From positions 21,495 through 85,494 of the IMG/VR virus record IMGVR_UViG_3300020215_000050: a stretch of DNA of 64,000 nucleotides. One strand, given 5' to 3'. The stretch comes from a virus. The translations under genes were made by a program, and so were the position numbers. Below the pieces are notes generated by a model. The model was not told the DNA's origin and searched no databases. It saw only the letters and a list, made by a program, of their open reading frames with translations. Positions 4,301 through 20,885 of this stretch are shown one piece after another (positions within the stretch are counted from its first letter, which is position 1; each line of letters opens with the position of its first letter).

Positions 4301-5365
4301 TTATTTATTCAGGTAGCGGAGGGCCGTCTGCATGCCCATGTTGATCGCCTGGTCCATGTCGATGTAGACGAAGCTGCCGCAGCGGCCTATCGGCTCGACG
4401 TTGGGGTGCTTCTCCGCGAGCCTCTTCGCGTACCGGTCGTACAGGTCCAGGCTCCGCTCGTCCCTCACGGGGTAGTAGCGCTCGTAGTCGTTCTCCATGA
4501 AGTCGCACGGGTGCTCCTCCGTGAGCTTCGAGTAGCACGGGTGCGGGTCGTAGTTCCCGGGGAAGTGCTTCCACTCCGTCCTGCGGGTGAAGTACCGCCC
4601 GTCCGTGTAGTTGATGGTCGCCACGGGCTGGTAGGTCTCGTGGGGCTCGGTCCTCGCGATCGAGTGGAAGAACTTGAGCGAGCGGTACGGCAGCCAGCCC
4701 TCGTCGCACTCGAAGATCTCGTCCAGCGAGCCCGAGTAGAAGACCCGGTCGTAGTCGTCGAAGTAGTCGGGGTCCACCTTCACGCCGGTGCTGTACCGGA
4801 TCCTCTCGTGACAGAGGAGCTCGCGGACGAAGTCCGTGTAGCCGTCCATGGGCATCGCCTGCCACGGGTCGTTGGGGAAGTACAGGTCGTTGTCGTCCTC
4901 GCGGATGGGGACCCGATTGAGGACGCCCGGGGAGACCTCCTCGAGCGGCCTGCCCCACATGAGCTGGGTGTACGGCCGGTAGAAGACGTCGACGAGCTTC
5001 TCGCGGGGGACGGACTCGAGGGTCCGCTTGTTGGGCGGGAACGGGACGAGGGTGCCCTCCCACAGCCGGGCCTTCACCCGGTGCTGGTAGCCCATCCAGA
5101 CGACGAAGCGGGAGACGAACTCCCACACCCGCTGGTTCTTGGTGTGGAAGATGTGGGGGCCGTAGCGGTGGACCCGGATGCCGTACTCGTCGAGCTCGTC
5201 GTAGGCGTTTCCCGCCACGTGGTTCCTCTGCTCGAGGACCTGGACGTCGACCCCGCCCTCGGCCAGCAGCCGGGCGATCGTGGCCCCGCACAAGCCGGCG
5301 CCGACCACGAGCACGAGATTCCGGGATTGCCTACCCGGAATGGGCTGGATGGTGCTGCCGGTCAC
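4301..5365 (-). CDS. glf: UDP-galactopyranose mutase
   Basis: VGAGLCG FAD motif, GNAYD, HRYGPHIFHT, RYYP, GRCGSFVYIDMDQAI. GTG start at 5365 overlaps the TGA of the upstream gene. Confidence 0.92.
   Translation of the reverse strand: MTGSTIQPIPGRQSRNLVLVVGAGLCGATIARLLAEGGVDVQVLEQRNHVAGNAYDELDEYGIRVHRYGPHIFHTKNQRVWEFVSRFVVWMGYQHRVKARLWEGTLVPFPPNKRTLESVPREKLVDVFYRPYTQLMWGRPLEEVSPGVLNRVPIREDDNDLYFPNDPWQAMPMDGYTDFVRELLCHERIRYSTGVKVDPDYFDDYDRVFYSGSLDEIFECDEGWLPYRSLKFFHSIARTEPHETYQPVATINYTDGRYFTRRTEWKHFPGNYDPHPCYSKLTEEHPCDFMENDYERYYPVRDERSLDLYDRYAKRLAEKHPNVEPIGRCGSFVYIDMDQAINMGMQTALRYLNK
4302..4309 (-). promoter_or_regulatory. T4-type late promoter (AATAAATA)
   Basis: AT-rich octamer upstream of the ART-like gene, overlapping the glf stop. 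Confidence 0.5.
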
Positions 5366-6456
5366 TTGCGGGCATCCAGTATGGCCTGCAGCTCCGCCCT
5401 TTCGGTGGCCTTGTCCAGGGGGTGCTTGGAGTAGAGGCAGTCCCTCTGCTGGCGGGCGAGGGCGACCAGCCCGTCGAGGTCCTTCGACTCGACGTCCCGG
5501 GCCCTGAGCCCGACGTAGGCCTCGCCGTAGACCCTGCCCTCGTCGTCGTCGCAGACGAGGATCGAGCCGGCGTCGGCGACCTGGAGGGGCCTGGCCCGCC
5601 ACCAGCCCGAGCCCCGGTGGAAGTAGCCCGGCATCAGGCAGCCCCACTGCTGGGCGTAGATCTCGCACATCGTGTCCTCGGTCACCCTCTCGGACTGGTT
5701 CTCCCCCCGCCTGCCCCCGTAGATGTTCACGGGCCAGGTCACCCCCTGGCGGTCGAGCCACGAGCGGGTCTTGTTCTGGACGAGGGAGGAGAAGTTCCAC
5801 TCCCTCTTCTTCGCCTCGTTGGAGACGACCGACGAGCCGAACATGTCCACGACGCCCCGTCCGTAGTTGTTGTCGGGCCGGCGGTTGAGGTGGTAGGGGT
5901 TGGGGTTGTAGGTGAAGATCCTGTCCCTGGGCCAGCCCGTCCGGAGCTTGTCGATGTCCCCGCCCGCGAAGGCCGAGATGAGCAGCCGGTTCTGCTTCGA
6001 GCATATCGTGTCGATCGCGTGGACGAAGTCCATCGTGTGCTTGGCGAGGAACTCCTCGGTGTAGTGCTCCTTCTGGATGTCGAGGGTGTATGCCCTGAAC
6101 GCGTACGAGGCGTTGTTGTCCGTGAAGTACGCCCTGAACAGCTTGATGCTCGACATGATCTGGTCCGTCTGCCAGTCGTCGAAGGCGAGGATGCAATCGG
6201 GTCGGGCGTGGACGGCCCAGAAGCCGGCGAACAGGCGCTGGCAGTAGCCCTTGGGTGAGTGGAGGAACACGATGACCTCGTCCCACGCGGAGAGGTCCTC
6301 GCCCACCGTGACGTGGCGGTGCTCCACCTCGAAGCCCATGGCCTCCAGGCAGCGGATCAGCGAGTAGTGGCTGGCGACGACCTGCAGCTCCTGCCTAAGG
6401 TAGTAGTCCTTGGTCGTCTGGTTGGTGTTCATCCCGGTGATCAGGATACGCTTCAT
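5362..6456 (-). CDS. Putative GT-B glycosyltransferase, distantly like T4 beta-glucosyltransferase
   Basis: 364 aa; N-terminal KRILITG strand, LEAMGFEVE, ILAFDDW, C-terminal R.LQVADAGSILVCD; sits between gp42 and glf. Fold inferred from layout and context only. Confidence 0.5.
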   Translation of the reverse strand: MKRILITGMNTNQTTKDYYLRQELQVVASHYSLIRCLEAMGFEVEHRHVTVGEDLSAWDEVIVFLHSPKGYCQRLFAGFWAVHARPDCILAFDDWQTDQIMSSIKLFRAYFTDNNASYAFRAYTLDIQKEHYTEEFLAKHTMDFVHAIDTICSKQNRLLISAFAGGDIDKLRTGWPRDRIFTYNPNPYHLNRRPDNNYGRGVVDMFGSSVVSNEAKKREWNFSSLVQNKTRSWLDRQGVTWPVNIYGGRRGENQSERVTEDTMCEIYAQQWGCLMPGYFHRGSGWWRARPLQVADAGSILVCDDDEGRVYGEAYVGLRARDVESKDLDGLVALARQQRDCLYSKHPLDKATERAELQAILDARK

Positions 6457-18590: not shown

Positions 18591-18618
18591 GTTTACCGCA
18601 TTAAAAATCCGGTATAAT
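18591..18618 (+). promoter_or_regulatory. Probable promoter of the tRNA region
   Basis: GTTTAC...GGTATAAT in an AT-rich island, divergent from cassette 3. Confidence 0.55.
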
Positions 18619-18634: not shown

Positions 18635-18717
18635 GTCCTCGTAGCCGAGGCCGCCTTCTAAGCGGTTATCCGTAACCGGAGCTGAGAATGCGGGTTCGAA
18701 TCCTGCCGAGGACGCCA
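18635..18717 (+). tRNA. Non-canonical tRNA-Arg(UCU)-like RNA lacking a D-arm
   Basis: GTCCTCG/CGAGGAC acceptor, GCCA end, loop CTTCTAA, T-loop TTCGAAT; only 8 nt between acceptor and anticodon stems; 23-nt variable region. Confidence 0.8.
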
Positions 18718-18723
18718 GAGCAT

Positions 18724-18800
18724 GTGGACGTGACCCGAATGGCTAGGGGCCGACCTGCAACGTCGCGTACATGTGGGTTCGACTCCCACCGTCCACTCCA
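18724..18800 (+). tRNA. tRNA-Cys(GCA)
   Basis: GTGGACG/CGTCCAC, loop CTGCAAC, U73, CCA. Confidence 0.88.
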
Positions 18801-18805
18801 CTACC

Positions 18806-18880
18806 GGGGCCTCATGTACCAAGGGGGCGAGACTGCCTTGCAAGCAGACTGGGACGGTTCGATTCCGTCAGGCTCCACCA
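18806..18880 (+). tRNA. tRNA-Ala(UGC)
   Basis: G3:U70 pair, loop CTTGCAA, A73, CCA. Confidence 0.9.
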
Positions 18881-18896
18881 ACTTTGGAGGTTCGCT

Positions 18897-19178
18897 ATGG
18901 AAGAAGACGGGCTGTCGGTCCTCGAGGGCACCATCCAGTTCCGCGAATACGCGCCGGAGGAGCTCGTCGTGTGGGACGGCAGATCCCTGACCACCAACGT
19001 GCTCAGGTTCAAGGAGCCCGAGGACGAGCGCGAGCTCGAGTGGAAGGACCGCCTGCAGAGGAAGCGACGGCGCCGTTTCAACCGCTCCATCGCGGCGAGC
19101 AAGATCCCCAACGGCGGCCGGAAGGGCATCGTCTCCCGCCGGGTCCTGATGAACCGGGTCCTCGATGTCGGAGCTTGA
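18897..19178 (+). CDS. Small basic protein, KGxV motif copy A
   Basis: GGAGG SD; RKRRRRF...NGGRKGIVSRRV. Confidence 0.6.
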   Translation: MEEDGLSVLEGTIQFREYAPEELVVWDGRSLTTNVLRFKEPEDERELEWKDRLQRKRRRRFNRSIAASKIPNGGRKGIVSRRVLMNRVLDVGA

Positions 19179-19419
19179 TCCCGTCCGCCTCCACAAGAGG
19201 TACATCCAGCGGTGGCAGAAGTCCGACGACTGCGCCGAGAAGTGGTCCGATCGGGTGTCGAGGGTCGACGACCTCAACCAGGACATCAAGGGGGAGGTCA
19301 ACCCGCGGGTGATGAAGAGGCTGAGGAGGTCCTATGTTACGAGATCTGTGGCCCGGATGCTCGTTGAGGAGGAGAAGAGAAAAGCACGACCACGCGCTCG
19401 TCGCCGAGTACTGCGGTAG
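19165..19419 (+). CDS. Small basic protein, KGxV motif copy B
   Basis: NQDIKGEVNPRV. Confidence 0.55.
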   Translation: MSELDPVRLHKRYIQRWQKSDDCAEKWSDRVSRVDDLNQDIKGEVNPRVMKRLRRSYVTRSVARMLVEEEKRKARPRARRRVLR

Positions 19420-19576
19420 GTACATCGTATGGTGGCAGAAGAGCGAGCCGTGGCGGAGGCGGAACCTGCTGAAGCGGATCGAGCGGAACAAGTACCTGGC
19501 ATTGCCTGGCCGAAGGAAGGGCCCGGTCGCTCCGTGGGTCTTGGCCTCAAATACCTCGAAGAGCTCAAGCCGCTAG
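19334..19576 (+). CDS. Small basic protein, KGxV motif copy C
   Basis: AGGAGG SD; PGRRKGPVAPWV. Confidence 0.5.
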   Translation: MLRDLWPGCSLRRRREKHDHALVAEYCGRYIVWWQKSEPWRRRNLLKRIERNKYLALPGRRKGPVAPWVLASNTSKSSSR

Positions 19577-19722
19577 TGAGGCGGAGGTTCTTGAGGAGGG
19601 TGCCGCTGCTGATGAGGCTGAACGGGATCCACAAGGGCAAGGTAGACAGAAGGGTGAAGATGTCATGGAAGGCTGGGACGGAGGCGGCGGGCCGGCGGAG
19701 CCGCAGTGGTCGGGACCGGTAG
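19534..19722 (+). CDS. Small basic protein, KGxV motif copy D
   Basis: NGIHKGKVDRRV; start uncertain (19429, 19534 or 19576). Confidence 0.45.
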   Translation: MGLGLKYLEELKPLVRRRFLRRVPLLMRLNGIHKGKVDRRVKMSWKAGTEAAGRRSRSGRDR

Positions 19723-19886
19723 TCAAGTCGGACAAGCTGGTGGAGAATCGCCTCCGCGAGCGGAGGAACCAGCGCACGAACCGGCAGGGACTGTACAGGA
19801 ACGGGTACAACAAGGGCAAGGTGAACGCCCGGGTGCTGCCGAGGGGCGGCATCTTTAGGGGGGTAAACTGGAGGAACTTTCTTTAG
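19665..19886 (+). CDS. Small basic protein, KGxV motif copy E
   Basis: NGYNKGKVNARV. Confidence 0.5.
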   Translation: MEGWDGGGGPAEPQWSGPVVKSDKLVENRLRERRNQRTNRQGLYRNGYNKGKVNARVLPRGGIFRGVNWRNFL

Positions 19887-19968
19887 GCCACGTAGCCGAG
19901 CGACGCTTCGAACGTCGTAACCGTAGCTGGAGCTGAGAAGGCGGGTTCGAATCCTGTCGTGGCCTCCA
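19886..19968 (+). tRNA. Non-canonical tRNA-Arg(UCG)-like RNA lacking a D-arm
   Basis: GGCCACG/CGTGGCC, loop CTTCGAA, T-loop TTCGAAT, CCA; 8-nt linker; 23-nt variable region. Confidence 0.8.
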
Positions 19969-19970
19969 AA

Positions 19971-20051
19971 GCTCACGTAACCCCCGGGCTTGCGAAGTCC
20001 GAGAAAGGTAACCGGAGGCAGATGCAGGTTCGAGTCCTGCCGTGAGCGCCA
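19971..20051 (+). tRNA. Non-canonical tRNA-Arg(GCG)-like RNA lacking a D-arm
   Basis: GCTCACG/CGTGAGC, loop TTGCGAA, T-loop TTCGAGT, GCCA; 7-nt linker; 22-nt variable region. Confidence 0.78.
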
Positions 20052-20069: not shown

Positions 20070-20354
20070 ATGATGACCGGGAGGCAGTGGTACGAGATCT
20101 GGACGCCGAGGGGCAAGACGAGGATGGAGATGGGTCACCCTGTCAGCTGGGAGAAGACCTACTCCTACCACCTGAGGAGGCAACTGAGGGTACATAGGAT
20201 CGACGGCGGCGACCTCTATCACTTCCACCGGCAGATGGAAAAACAGATCCAACAGCAGCGGCAGATGGACATCGTCATGGACTACGTTTGGGGGATTGCC
20301 GCCCACTTCGTCTTGATCGTCGTCGGCCTCGCGATGTTCCTGCTGCTGAGATAA
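20070..20354 (+). CDS. Hypothetical protein with C-terminal TM segment
   Basis: GAGG SD; hydrophobic C-terminus. Confidence 0.55.
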   Translation: MMTGRQWYEIWTPRGKTRMEMGHPVSWEKTYSYHLRRQLRVHRIDGGDLYHFHRQMEKQIQQQRQMDIVMDYVWGIAAHFVLIVVGLAMFLLLR

Positions 20355-20440: not shown

Positions 20441-20529
20441 GGAGAGTCAACCGGGGAGGTTCCCGGGGCTCCCTGCTAAGGATGCCGGACCCGGTCGGGT
20501 CTGTGTTTCGAGTACACGGCTCTCCGCCA
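20441..20529 (+). tRNA. tRNA-Ser(GCU), atypical
   Basis: Loop CTGCTAA, long variable arm, G73, CCA; 6-bp D-stem, T53:A61. Confidence 0.75.
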
Positions 20530-20543
20530 CCAACGAGTGAACG

Positions 20544-20885
20544 ATGACGTTCAACCAGTACATGATCTGCCTGTTGATCCTCCTCGTGGCGGTCTTCATG
20601 TGGCTCGTCCTCGACCAGACGCCAGAGAAGAGGGAGCCGCCCAAGGCGACGACCCCGGAGCAGGCCAAGCTCGCAGTTGACAAAACGATCGAGAAAGATA
20701 ATTTACGACGACTCAAAAGGAAGGTGAACCGGACAGGCGCGCCGGACTCGCCTGGAAAGCGCAGTGGGCCTCCAAAAGGGGCTCGAGTTTCGAGTACTCC
20801 GCCTTCCGCCACTAGTTCCCTCGCGCGGGAAATGCTCCGCGGACACAGGCGCGAGCACGAGAGAAGGAAGAAAGACATGACATAG
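20544..20885 (+). CDS. Membrane-anchored hypothetical protein whose frame runs through tRNA-Ser(GGA)
   Basis: N-terminal TM segment; no stop before 20885. Confidence 0.4.
   Translation: MTFNQYMICLLILLVAVFMWLVLDQTPEKREPPKATTPEQAKLAVDKTIEKDNLRRLKRKVNRTGAPDSPGKRSGPPKGARVSSTPPSATSSLAREMLRGHRREHERRKKDMT
20719..20811 (+). tRNA. tRNA-Ser(GGA), atypical
   Basis: GGAAGGT/GCCTTCC, loop CTGGAAA, long variable arm, G73, CCA; T53:A61. Confidence 0.75.

What the first reader, a model, noticed from the sequence alone, without database searches (positions are those of the whole stretch)
18635..20051. Three tRNA-Arg-like genes with the D-arm removed and a D-loop-like motif placed 3' of the anticodon arm
Seen in sequence: 18635-18717 (UCU), 19886-19968 (UCG) and 19971-20051 (GCG) each have a perfect 7-bp acceptor stem of different sequence (GTCCTCG, GGCCACG, GCTCACG with matching 3' strands, i.e. 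covariation rather than decay), an encoded CCA, a canonical T-arm and a 5-bp anticodon stem with a 7-nt loop. Only 7-8 nt (TAGCCGAG, TAGCCGAG, TAACCCC) lie where the ~19-nt D-arm belongs. The 22-23-nt variable region carries GTAACCGGAG / GTAGCTGGAG / GTAACCGGAG, and in copies 1 and 2 it can close a short hairpin (TCCG-TAAC-CGGA; CCG-TAGC-TGG). Established knowledge: D-loops read AGYUGG-like, G18G19 dock on the T-loop, and A20 plus C35 are the main ArgRS identity elements. All three RNAs have C35 and keep GGA. The other tRNAs here (Cys, Ala, Glu, Ser) keep D-arms. Inference: this is a topologically rearranged tRNA class in which the G18-G19-A20 loop is supplied from the variable position. It could be chargeable but invisible to host anticodon nucleases, or act as a decoy. 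I know of no described tRNA family with this layout.
Basis: partly seen in the sequence, partly recalled or inferred. Interest (0 to 1): 0.92.

Follow-up and report, generated by a model that had tools for sequence, protein, structure and literature searches.

The report
Phage arginine tRNAs with rewired core
The three odd genes are very probably working arginine tRNAs of a widespread, phage-borne class whose D-loop lies after the anticodon arm, a non-cloverleaf layout that gene finders miss and that I could not find described in any paper.

Summary
At 18635-18717 (UCU), 19886-19968 (UCG) and 19971-20051 (GCG) lie three tRNA-sized genes. Each has a perfect acceptor stem, an encoded CCA, a normal T arm and anticodon arm, no D hairpin, and a D-loop-like motif 3' of the anticodon arm.

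They are not decayed tRNAs. I collected 83 distinct sequences of the same layout from 64 loci. These include cultured Pseudomonas, Microbacterium and Mesorhizobium phages, where the genes are unannotated. None was found in 302 sampled bacterial genomes.

The D-arm is rewired, not removed. Covariation and RNAalifold show that the retained 5' strand (nt 9-13) pairs with two short strands on either side of the relocated loop. The loop's second purine covaries with the base before the T stem, as in the canonical 15:48 pair. All 78 Arg members have A after GG (the A20 position). The five Ile and Lys members have U there.

The ideas of nuclease evasion or a decoy role remain untested.

Most likely these are host-charged arginine tRNAs. 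They are the only Arg tRNAs in this T4-like soil phage record. Expression and charging were not shown. This scan has met the same class before on other DNA. I found no paper on it.

The parts
18635..18717 (+). W1: rewired tRNA-Arg(UCU), type 1, with encoded CCA
   Evidence: Read directly. R1 gives 96.3 bits. Rfam tRNA gives 35.5 bits with the D-arm deleted. ARAGORN makes no call.
18643..18647 (+). W1 retained D-stem 5' strand (A9 G10 C11 | C12 G13)
   Evidence: Pairs with 18681-18683 (H2) and 18671-18672 (H1). Covariation; predicted de novo by RNAalifold.
18650..18666 (+). W1 anticodon arm, anticodon TCT at 18657-18659
   Evidence: All 5 pairs covary in A1.
18671..18672 (+). W1 H1 3' half-strand (C G) just before the loop
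   Evidence: 13:37 is GC in 28 and AU in 3; 12:38 is invariant CG. It is CG in phage PA11.
18673..18680 (+). W1 relocated D-loop-like bulge TAACCGGA (A14, R15, Y16, Y17, G18, G19, A20 equivalents)
   Evidence: TAACTGGA, the commonest form of this motif in the family (the window's own copies read TAACCGGA or TAGCTGGA), is the same 8-mer as the D-loops of canonical phage tRNA-Arg in member contigs. GG and the following A are invariant in Arg members.
18681..18683 (+). W1 H2 3' half-strand (G C T) just after the loop
   Evidence: 10:48 is GC in 25 and AU in 6. 11:47 is CG in 28, AU in 1, UA in 1, UG in 1. 100% of cells are paired.
18684..18689 (+). W1 6-nt connector to the T stem; its last base, T18689, partners the loop's second purine (A18675)
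   Evidence: 15:48-like covariation: A:U 74, G:C 6, G:G 3, with no exception (column pair 41:55).
18690..18706 (+). W1 T arm with TTCGAAT loop
19886..19968 (+). W2: rewired tRNA-Arg(UCG), type 1, with encoded CCA; anticodon at 19908-19910
   Evidence: R1 gives 90.1 bits. Not called by ARAGORN or by Rfam tRNA.
19894..19898 (+). W2 retained 5' strand (A G C | C G)
   Evidence: Pairs with 19932-19934 and 19922-19923.
19924..19931 (+). W2 relocated D-loop-like bulge TAGCTGGA; G19926 goes with G19940 before the T stem
   Evidence: G:G is one of only three combinations seen at this pair.
19971..20051 (+). W3: rewired tRNA-Arg(GCG), type 2, with encoded CCA; anticodon at 19992-19994
   Evidence: R1 gives 50.2 bits. 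Rfam tRNA gives 33.1 bits with the D-arm deleted.
19979..19984 (+). W3 5' strand (A A | C C | C C)
   Evidence: C19981 and C19982 pair with G20008 and G20007. C19984 pairs with G20003. 11:38 is CG in 11 and GC in 1; 14:33 is CG in 7 and GC in 3. A19979 and A19980 face G20018 and G20017 as non-standard A.G pairs, which is inferred.
20009..20016 (+). W3 relocated D-loop-like bulge TAACCGGA
20019..20023 (+). W3 5-nt connector CAGAT; T20023 partners A20011

Best explanation
The three genes are functional elongator tRNA-Arg isoacceptors: UCU for AGA/AGG, UCG for CGA/CGG and GCG for CGC/CGU. They belong to a phage-borne tRNA class with a rewired core. The acceptor stem, T arm and anticodon arm are standard.

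The 5' strand of the D-stem stays in place after U8. It does not close on a D-loop. Instead it forms two short helices around the anticodon arm. H1 pairs nt 12-13 (up to 14) with the 2-3 nt just before the relocated loop. H2 pairs nt 9-11 with the 2-3 nt just after the loop. The D-loop sequence (UA-R-YY-GG-A) therefore sits as an 8-nt bulge on the 3' side of a composite D/anticodon arm. A 4-6 nt purine-rich connector leads to the T stem.

Shown here: the two helices, the 15:48-type pair, and the isotype-specific base after GG.

Inferred: the bulge docks G18 and G19 on the T-loop to give an L shape; host ArgRS reads the A20 equivalent together with C35; and the tRNAs are made, end in CCA, are charged, and decode the phage's Arg codons. 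No phage ArgRS or CCA-adding enzyme lies in the record.

Why the core is rewired is not known. The simplest reading is a rearrangement that works, arose in a phage tRNA-Arg, and then spread and diversified by anticodon change.
For: Family and conservation:
- 83 distinct sequences from 64 loci share the layout but have unrelated acceptor and anticodon stems.
- R1 separates members (44-99 bits) from the ordinary tRNAs of the same loci (38 bits or less).

Structure:
- Type 1 (31 sequences): H2 is 100% paired, with 10:48 GC 25 / AU 6 and 11:47 in four pair types; 13:37 is GC 28 / AU 3. Shuffles reach the observed score 0 times in 500.
- Type 3 (19 sequences): 12:37 is GC 8 / AU 6 / UA 5 and 13:36 is CG 9 / GC 7 / AU 3, all paired.
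- Type 2, which includes W3: 11:38 and 14:33 covary.
- RNAalifold finds H2 and H1 without being told.

D-loop identity:
- The 15:48-like pair is A:U 74, G:C 6, G:G 3, with no other combination.
- The 8-mer TAACTGGA equals the D-loops of canonical tRNA-Arg in the same contigs.

Arginine identity:
- All six Arg anticodons occur, and C35 and A37 are kept.
- A follows GG in 78 of 78 Arg members. U follows GG in all 4 Ile and the 1 Lys member. This matches bacterial identity sets: A20, C35 and A/G/U73 for Arg, and U20/U21 for Ile (PMC9976931).
- CCA is encoded in 65 of 83.

This phage:
- No canonical tRNA-Arg lies in the 123-kb record.
- AGG is used at about 20 per 1000 codons.
- No ArgRS, CCA-adding enzyme or RtcB was found.
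- Soil relatives differ in the flanking ORFs but not in W2 or W3.
Against: - No expression, end-maturation or aminoacylation data exist for any member that I could reach.
- Nearest-neighbour energies do not favour the proposed fold in W1 and W2: -23.7 and -21.9 kcal/mol against MFE folds of -37.2 and -32.0.
- H1 and H2 are only 2-3 bp each, and in W3 the H2 position holds A.G pairs.
- Geometry is unresolved. Only one nucleotide separates the GG from the H2 strand, so canonical G18/G19 docking on the T-loop and a straight H2-H1 stack may not both hold.
- Sampling was biased. Most members were fished with a GGAG-containing pattern, so the 78-of-78 count for A20 and the dominance of Arg are partly by construction. 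About ten Arg members and all five non-Arg members came from motif-relaxed or model searches.
- Several member phages also carry a canonical tRNA-Arg, sometimes with the same anticodon. The rewired copy is therefore not always needed for decoding.
Confidence: 0.75

Rival explanations
1. The RNAs are tRNA mimics that do not work in translation. They might be decoys or sponges for a host factor that senses or cuts tRNA-Arg, or serve as primers or regulators. On this reading the Arg-type loops are kept for that partner, not for decoding.
For: Canonical tRNA-Arg genes with the same anticodon sit beside rewired ones in some phages, for example L062, L085, L103, L021 and L029, which suggests a non-redundant role. 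The architecture departs from every tRNA known to be used by bacterial ribosomes. No expression or charging data exist.
Against: A decoy for an anticodon-directed factor would not need a perfect covarying acceptor stem, an Arg-compatible discriminator, an encoded CCA, the A20 equivalent, and a full spread over all six Arg anticodons. In this record they are the only Arg tRNAs. No conserved protein partner lies nearby: the commonest neighbour family occurs in 7 of 63 loci.
Confidence: 0.1
2. They are class-II-like tRNAs that lost the D-arm and carry an independent hairpin in a long variable region. This is the first reader's local hairpin, comparable to D-armless mitochondrial tRNA-Ser with an added variable arm.
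For: In W1 the stretch TCCG-TAAC-CGGA can pair, and in type 1 the pairs 37:44 and 38:43 are always possible.
Against: The hairpin is only 74-75% paired and shows no change on both sides in type 1 or type 3. The same pre-loop bases covary with nt 12-14 of the 5' strand. The hairpin would also bury G18 and G19.
Confidence: 0.04
3. They are decaying tRNA pseudogenes or assembly artefacts.
For: ARAGORN misses them, and Rfam scores are low or absent.
Against: There are compensatory changes in every helix, invariant tertiary-type positions, 83 distinct sequences in independent assemblies and in five cultured-phage records, and no variation in soil relatives that do vary in the flanks.
Confidence: 0.01
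4. The gene is a precursor that is cut and rejoined (intron removal or permutation) into an ordinary cloverleaf tRNA.
For: Permuted and intron-bearing tRNA genes exist in algae and archaea (established knowledge). Some tRNA-rich phages encode RNA ligases, for example RtcB in Pumpernickel near its tRNA cluster.
Against: No single excision restores the order D-stem, D-loop, D-stem, anticodon arm, because the acceptor ends are already in place and the blocks are swapped internally (read from the sequence). No RtcB lies in this record. Covariation supports the unprocessed fold.
Confidence: 0.02

Closest known systems
Canonical bacterial and phage tRNA-Arg (Rfam RF00005), e.g. the ordinary tRNA-Arg genes in member contigs L046:11260-11333 and L049:8607-8682
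   Same: The acceptor stem, T arm, anticodon stem-loop, Arg anticodons, C35, A37 and discriminator A/G/U are shared. The D-loop 8-mer TAACTGGA with the A20 equivalent is the same, and so is 15:48-type covariation.
   Different: The order of the blocks along the chain differs. The anticodon arm lies between the D-stem 5' strand and the D-loop. The D-stem 3' strand is split into two 2-3-nt pieces on either side of the loop. There is no D hairpin, and the junction has three arms instead of four.
D-armless mitochondrial tRNA-Ser(AGY) of animals (PMC4013460, PMC9427863)
   Same: Both lack a D hairpin, both have a three-arm secondary structure, and both are missed by standard finders.
   Different: The mitochondrial tRNAs have lost the D-loop and its G18/G19 contact and depend on co-evolved mitochondrial factors. 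Here every D-loop element is kept but moved, sequences are G+C-rich with perfect stems, and the setting is bacterial translation.
Class II tRNAs (Ser, Leu, Tyr) with a long variable arm
   Same: Both have a region of about 20 nt between the anticodon stem and the T stem.
   Different: In class II tRNAs that region folds on itself and a D hairpin is present. Here it pairs with nt 9-13 and carries the D-loop.
Permuted tRNA genes of Cyanidioschyzon merolae and split or intron-bearing archaeal tRNA genes
   Same: The gene order of tRNA parts departs from the textbook order.
   Different: Those are rearranged at the gene level and processed to an ordinary cloverleaf. Here the 5' and 3' ends are in place, and the mature RNA itself would be non-cloverleaf.
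Viral tRNA-like structures of plant RNA viruses (TLS-Val, TLS-His; PMC8127992)
   Same: An L-like shape with D-loop/T-loop-type contacts would be built from a different strand topology, and the RNA is recognised by a host synthetase.
   Different: TLSs are 3' ends of genomic RNAs with a pseudoknotted acceptor, and they are not decoding adaptors. These are free-standing genes with a standard acceptor stem and anticodon arm.

Membership tests
tRNA (Rfam RF00005, cloverleaf) | 7-bp acceptor stem, discriminator, CCA end | tested here: met
   The acceptor pairs are 100% paired and all covary.
tRNA (Rfam RF00005, cloverleaf) | T arm: 5-bp stem with a T54-Psi55-C56-R57-A58 type loop | tested here: met
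   The loop is TTCGA(A/G)T in all three, and GTTCGA is nearly invariant in A1.
tRNA (Rfam RF00005, cloverleaf) | Anticodon arm: 5-bp stem and 7-nt loop with U33 and a purine at 37 | tested here: met
tRNA (Rfam RF00005, cloverleaf) | D hairpin (10-13 paired with 22-25 around the D-loop) 5' of the anticodon arm | tested here: not met
   Infernal deletes the D-arm. Only 7-8 nt are present there. The 5' strand pairs with bases 3' of the anticodon arm.
tRNA (Rfam RF00005, cloverleaf) | Score at or above the Rfam gathering threshold (29 bits) | tested here: inconclusive
   W1 scores 35.5 and W3 33.1 bits in the local scan. In the whole-window scan only W3 was reported. W2 falls below the threshold.
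Bacterial tRNA-Arg identity set (A20, C35, U/G36, A/G/U73; PMC9976931) | C35 and G36/U36 in the anticodon, and an Arg-compatible discriminator | tested here: met
   The anticodons are TCT, TCG and GCG, and the discriminators are G, T and G. Family-wide the discriminator is G 40, A 26, T 16, C 1. The identity set is cited.
Bacterial tRNA-Arg identity set (A20, C35, U/G36, A/G/U73; PMC9976931) | A20 next to G18 and G19 in the D-loop | tested here: met
   GGA is present in all three and in 78 of 78 Arg members. The Ile and Lys members have GGU. The loop is displaced, so whether ArgRS can reach it could not be tested here.
Bacterial tRNA-Arg identity set (A20, C35, U/G36, A/G/U73; PMC9976931) | Aminoacylation by ArgRS | not testable with these tools
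   This needs an in vitro charging assay or acid-gel northern blots.
D-armless mitochondrial-type tRNA | Loss of the D-loop and of the G18/G19 elements, with a short replacement loop | tested here: not met
   The D-loop motif is retained and conserved, only displaced.
Class II tRNA | A self-paired variable arm together with a normal D hairpin | tested here: not met
   The local hairpin has no covariation, and there is no D hairpin.
Rewired-core phage tRNA class (defined here by model R1) | H2 (nt 9-11 with the bases after the loop), H1 (nt 12-13 with the bases before the loop), a UA-R-YY-GG bulge, and a 15:48-type partner before the T stem | tested here: met
   W1 scores 96.3, W2 90.1 and W3 50.2 bits. 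The pairs were checked base by base.

The most novel reading that the evidence does not exclude
The rewired core is an adaptation, not a frozen accident. On this reading these tRNAs are charged by host ArgRS and decode normally. Because their D-region topology or gene sequence differs, they escape something that acts on ordinary tRNA-Arg or its gene. Candidates are a host defence nuclease or modification-dependent sensor, a phage-made factor that disables host tRNA-Arg, or tRNA-gene-targeting homing endonucleases; an HNH endonuclease gene abuts the PA11 copy. That would explain why some phages keep a canonical and a rewired tRNA-Arg with the same anticodon side by side.
Probability: 0.2. Interest if true: 0.92.

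Novelty: new variant of a known kind. Interest (0 to 1): 0.85.

Why it matters
All tRNAs known to serve bacterial ribosomes are cloverleaves. A conserved, widespread class with the core blocks in a different order would show that the L-shape and synthetase identity (A20 for ArgRS, U20/U21 for IleRS) can be built from another topology. That bears on tRNA folding, on how ArgRS, EF-Tu, RNase P and the ribosome recognise shape, and on the design of orthogonal tRNAs.

There is also a practical gap. ARAGORN overlaps only 7 of the 83 members, and mistypes 6 of those 7. The genes are unannotated in five cultured-phage records. Phage tRNA repertoires and codon-supply analyses therefore under-count arginine. 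For this phage the three genes are its whole Arg-decoding set in the held record.

Cultured carriers, above all Pseudomonas aeruginosa phage PA11, make the question directly testable.

Tried and rejected
- **RNA evidence.** No RNA holder was listed for the cluster. Only DNA contigs of four soil runs could be laid. Expression therefore could not be tested.
- **Literature.** Seven full-text searches and one candidate paper that I read (PMC9897764) gave no description of this layout.
- **Cellular genomes.** None of its 120 hits was a member by my parser, and none of the 100 I also searched with R1 was. In 302 sampled genomes of two phyla, the best R1 hits (41-43 bits) are ordinary tRNA-Arg, Gln and Gly. 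This means 'not found in those searched', not absent.
- **Partner proteins.** No ArgRS, CCA-adding enzyme or RtcB was found in the record. PHROGs gave nothing for the small ORFs between the tRNAs. Clustering 1127 neighbour ORFs found no family shared by more than 7 of 63 loci.
- **Promoter.** The simple promoter scan found no + strand sigma-70 site before W1. By eye, a TATAAT hexamer lies at 18613-18618.
- **Pairs tested and dropped.** 14:36 in type 1 is paired in 13 of 31. 10:47 and 13:34 in type 2 failed. The local hairpin failed.
- **Single-sequence folding.** It gives unrelated rod-like folds.
- **Three-dimensional model.** I could not settle one. A straight H2-H1 stack and canonical GG docking on the T-loop look hard to reconcile, because only one nucleotide lies between GG and H2.
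Full report
**1. What is in the window**

The sequence at the stated coordinates is as described. W1 (18635-18717, anticodon TCT), W2 (19886-19968, TCG) and W3 (19971-20051, GCG) share these features:
- a perfect 7-bp acceptor stem, different in each gene;
- a discriminator followed by an encoded CCA;
- a 5-bp T stem with a TTCGA(A/G)T loop;
- a 5-bp anticodon stem with a 7-nt loop that keeps U33 and A37.

Only 7-8 nt separate the acceptor stem from the anticodon stem, and 21-23 nt separate the anticodon stem from the T stem. ARAGORN finds only tRNA-Cys, tRNA-Ala and tRNA-Glu in the window. Rfam's tRNA model matches W1 (35.5 bits) and W3 (33.1 bits) only by deleting the D-arm and inserting 19-20 nt in the variable region. 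W2 gets just a weak tRNA-Sec match.

The window is part of a 123-kb IMG/VR virus record estimated to be 74% complete. The phage is T4-like, with Gp23 capsid, sheath, T4-type terminase, UvsW and a Rad50-like protein. Its G+C content is about 63%. The DNA occurs in soil metagenomes.

**2. A family, not a local oddity**

Pattern scans of IMG/VR, a descriptor script and a covariance model R1 built from 31 ungapped relatives gave 83 distinct sequences of the same layout from 64 loci. The source contigs range from 4 to 424 kb.

R1 scores members at 44-99 bits and the several hundred ordinary tRNAs of the same loci at 38 bits or less. Canonical tRNAs of sampled bacterial genomes reach 43.4 bits, so near the boundary membership must also be judged by length and structure.

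Members also lie unannotated in cultured phages:
- Pseudomonas phage PA11 (NC_007808 47672-47751, 82.4 bits), where the gene overlaps the end of an annotated HNH endonuclease CDS;
- Microbacterium phages Pumpernickel and Zooman;
- Mesorhizobium phage Cp1R7A-A1.

ARAGORN overlaps only 7 of the 83 members and mistypes 6 of those.

In cellular genomes I found none. In 302 sampled genomes of two phyla, the best hits are ordinary tRNAs.

The flanks of member genes share no protein family in more than 7 of 63 loci. The gene therefore travels on its own through very different phages.

**3. How it is wired**

Three subtypes differ in the 5' segment: type 1 has TAGCCGAG (W1, W2), type 2 has TAACCNN (W3), and type 3 has TACCNNA. 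In all three, the bases after U8 pair with two short strands that flank the D-loop-like motif.

| Alignment | Helix or pair | Result |
|---|---|---|
| Type 1, 31 sequences | H2 (9-11 with 47-49) | 100% paired; 10:48 GC 25 / AU 6; 11:47 CG 28, AU 1, UA 1, UG 1 |
| Type 1, 31 sequences | H1 (12-13 with 37-38) | 13:37 GC 28 / AU 3; the same pair is CG in phage PA11 |
| Type 3, 19 sequences | H1 | 12:37 GC 8 / AU 6 / UA 5; 13:36 CG 9 / GC 7 / AU 3; all paired |
| Type 2, 12 sequences | H1 region | 11:38 CG 11 / GC 1; 14:33 CG 7 / GC 3; the H2 position holds A.G pairs |

RNAalifold predicts H2 and H1 (type 1) and H1 (type 3) with no guidance.

The secondary structure is therefore a three-way junction of acceptor stem, T arm and one composite arm. 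Read from the junction, the composite arm is H2, then an 8-nt bulge on its 3' strand, then H1, then a small internal loop, then the anticodon stem.

**4. The bulge is the D-loop**

Three lines of evidence support this.
- The motif reads U-A-R-Y-Y-G-G-A. Its commonest form, TAACTGGA, is identical to the D-loops of ordinary tRNA-Arg genes in the same contigs.
- Its second purine covaries with the base just before the T stem, exactly as the canonical Levitt pair 15:48 does: A:U 74, G:C 6, G:G 3, and nothing else. G15:G48 is a known natural variant in E. coli tRNA-Cys (established knowledge).
- The base after GG follows the isotype. It is A in all 78 Arg members, and U (as UU) in the four Ile (GAU, UAU) members and the one Lys (CUU) member.

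A20 with C35 is the main bacterial Arg identity set, and U20/U21 belong to the bacterial Ile set (PMC9976931). The discriminators (G 40, A 26, U 16, C 1) also fit Arg.

One caveat applies. Most members were retrieved with patterns that contain GGAG, so the Arg counts are partly by construction. About ten Arg members and all five non-Arg members came from relaxed or model-based searches.

**5. What it most likely does**

All six Arg anticodons occur in the class, with canonical anticodon loops, covarying acceptor stems and usually an encoded CCA (65 of 83). That is what selection for decoding would keep.

In this record the three genes are the only Arg tRNAs among 13 tRNA genes that I could recognise. 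AGG makes up about 27% of Arg codons, roughly 20 per 1000 in a crude ORF set. The held 123 kb contains no ArgRS, CCA-adding enzyme or RtcB. Related soil strains differ in the flanking ORFs but show no difference in W2 or W3.

My best reading, at about 0.75, is that these are host-charged, translating tRNA-Arg. Transcription, processing, charging and decoding are all inferred. No RNA data were available.

**6. What remains open**

The reason for the rewiring is unknown. Several member phages carry a canonical tRNA-Arg as well, sometimes adjacent and with the same anticodon (L062, L085, L103, L021, L029). That hints at a non-redundant property such as resistance to a factor acting on ordinary tRNA-Arg or on its gene, but nothing tests this.

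The three-dimensional fold is also open:
- The connector of type 1 (6 nt) equals position 26 plus positions 44-48 of a normal tRNA. This suggests the anticodon arm has in effect moved from the 26/44 junction into the 5' side of the D-loop.
- The repeated TAGCCG before and after the anticodon arm in some members (L015, L028, L102) suggests an origin by partial duplication. Both points are inference.
- Only one nucleotide links GG to H2, so a straight H2-H1 stack and canonical elbow docking may not both hold.
- Nearest-neighbour energies favour other folds for W1 and W2, as often happens for G+C-rich tRNAs.

**7. Comparison with what is known, and verdict**

The class works like tRNA-Arg and meets every tested tRNA feature except the D hairpin. 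It is not:
- a D-armless mitochondrial-type tRNA, because the D-loop is kept;
- a class II tRNA, because there is no self-paired variable arm;
- a permuted or intron-bearing gene, because no excision gives a cloverleaf.

I found no paper that describes it. Earlier agents of this scan reported the same class on other DNA, reached the same wiring, and likewise found no paper. I derived the wiring model and ran the first covariation test before reading those notes; the remaining structure tests followed.

Verdict: a real, conserved, phage-borne non-cloverleaf tRNA class. It is a new variant of a known kind and of high interest, and its function is still to be shown at the bench.

Noticed in passing
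window 20441-20529 and 20719-20811 (+): There are two class-II tRNA-Ser-like genes (anticodons GCU and GGA) with an encoded CCA. Neither ARAGORN nor Rfam calls them, even at E up to 1. Both seem to have a 3+3-bp anticodon stem with one bulged base on the 3' side, and the first has a 5-bp D stem with a 6-nt loop. The second has 75-78% matches, unannotated, in Microcystis phage Mwe-JY26, Caulobacter phage BL57 and phage DSS3_MAL1.
   Followed up: partly
window 18806-18880 (+): tRNA-Ala(UGC) keeps the G3:U70 identity pair, but I could draw no convincing D stem. ARAGORN calls it; Rfam's tRNA model does not, even in the permissive scan.
   Followed up: no
L081:6307-6383(-), L081:6220-6296(-), L074:10049-10125(-), L102:2915-2991(+), L049:11003-11080(-): The same rewired layout occurs with non-Arg anticodons: Ile GAU (three), Ile UAU (one) and Lys CUU (one). 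All have GGUU instead of GGA after the loop purines. Their 5' strand covaries with the pre-loop bases (CTC/GAG against CTG/CAG).
   Followed up: partly
L340:1464-1543 (Pseudomonas phage PA11, NC_007808 47672-47751): The rewired tRNA-Arg(UCU) starts inside the last ~27 nt of an annotated HNH endonuclease CDS that resembles T5 F-TflI. Pumpernickel has a homing endonuclease and an RtcB-like ligase about 2 kb upstream of its copy.
   Followed up: no
G000:C1:1459-1533 and 5191-5276 (same record, outside the window): ARAGORN reports a tRNA with a 4-base anticodon (ttca) and an 86-nt tRNA-Ile(tat) in a second tRNA cluster of the phage.
   Followed up: no
whole record G000 (window included): AGG is as frequent as CGC and CGG, at about 20 per 1000 codons in a crude long-ORF set. 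That is unusual for DNA with 63% G+C.
   Followed up: no
window 18897-19886 and 20070-20354 (+): Small basic ORFs of 73-97 aa fill the gaps between the tRNA genes and match no PHROG family. The stop codon of ORF 19665-19886 overlaps the first base of W2.
   Followed up: partly
window 4301-6286 (-): A 661-aa ORF carries a UDP-galactopyranose mutase domain (E 4.6e-43) in a T4-like phage.
   Followed up: no
L062:4247-4326, L111:3169-3248, L026:2772-2851, L312:2681-2760 and others: Where ARAGORN does call a member, it mistypes it as Gln, Pyl, Val, Met or undetermined, apparently by reading the wrong hairpin as the anticodon arm. This is a possible source of spurious odd tRNAs in phage annotations.
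   Followed up: partly
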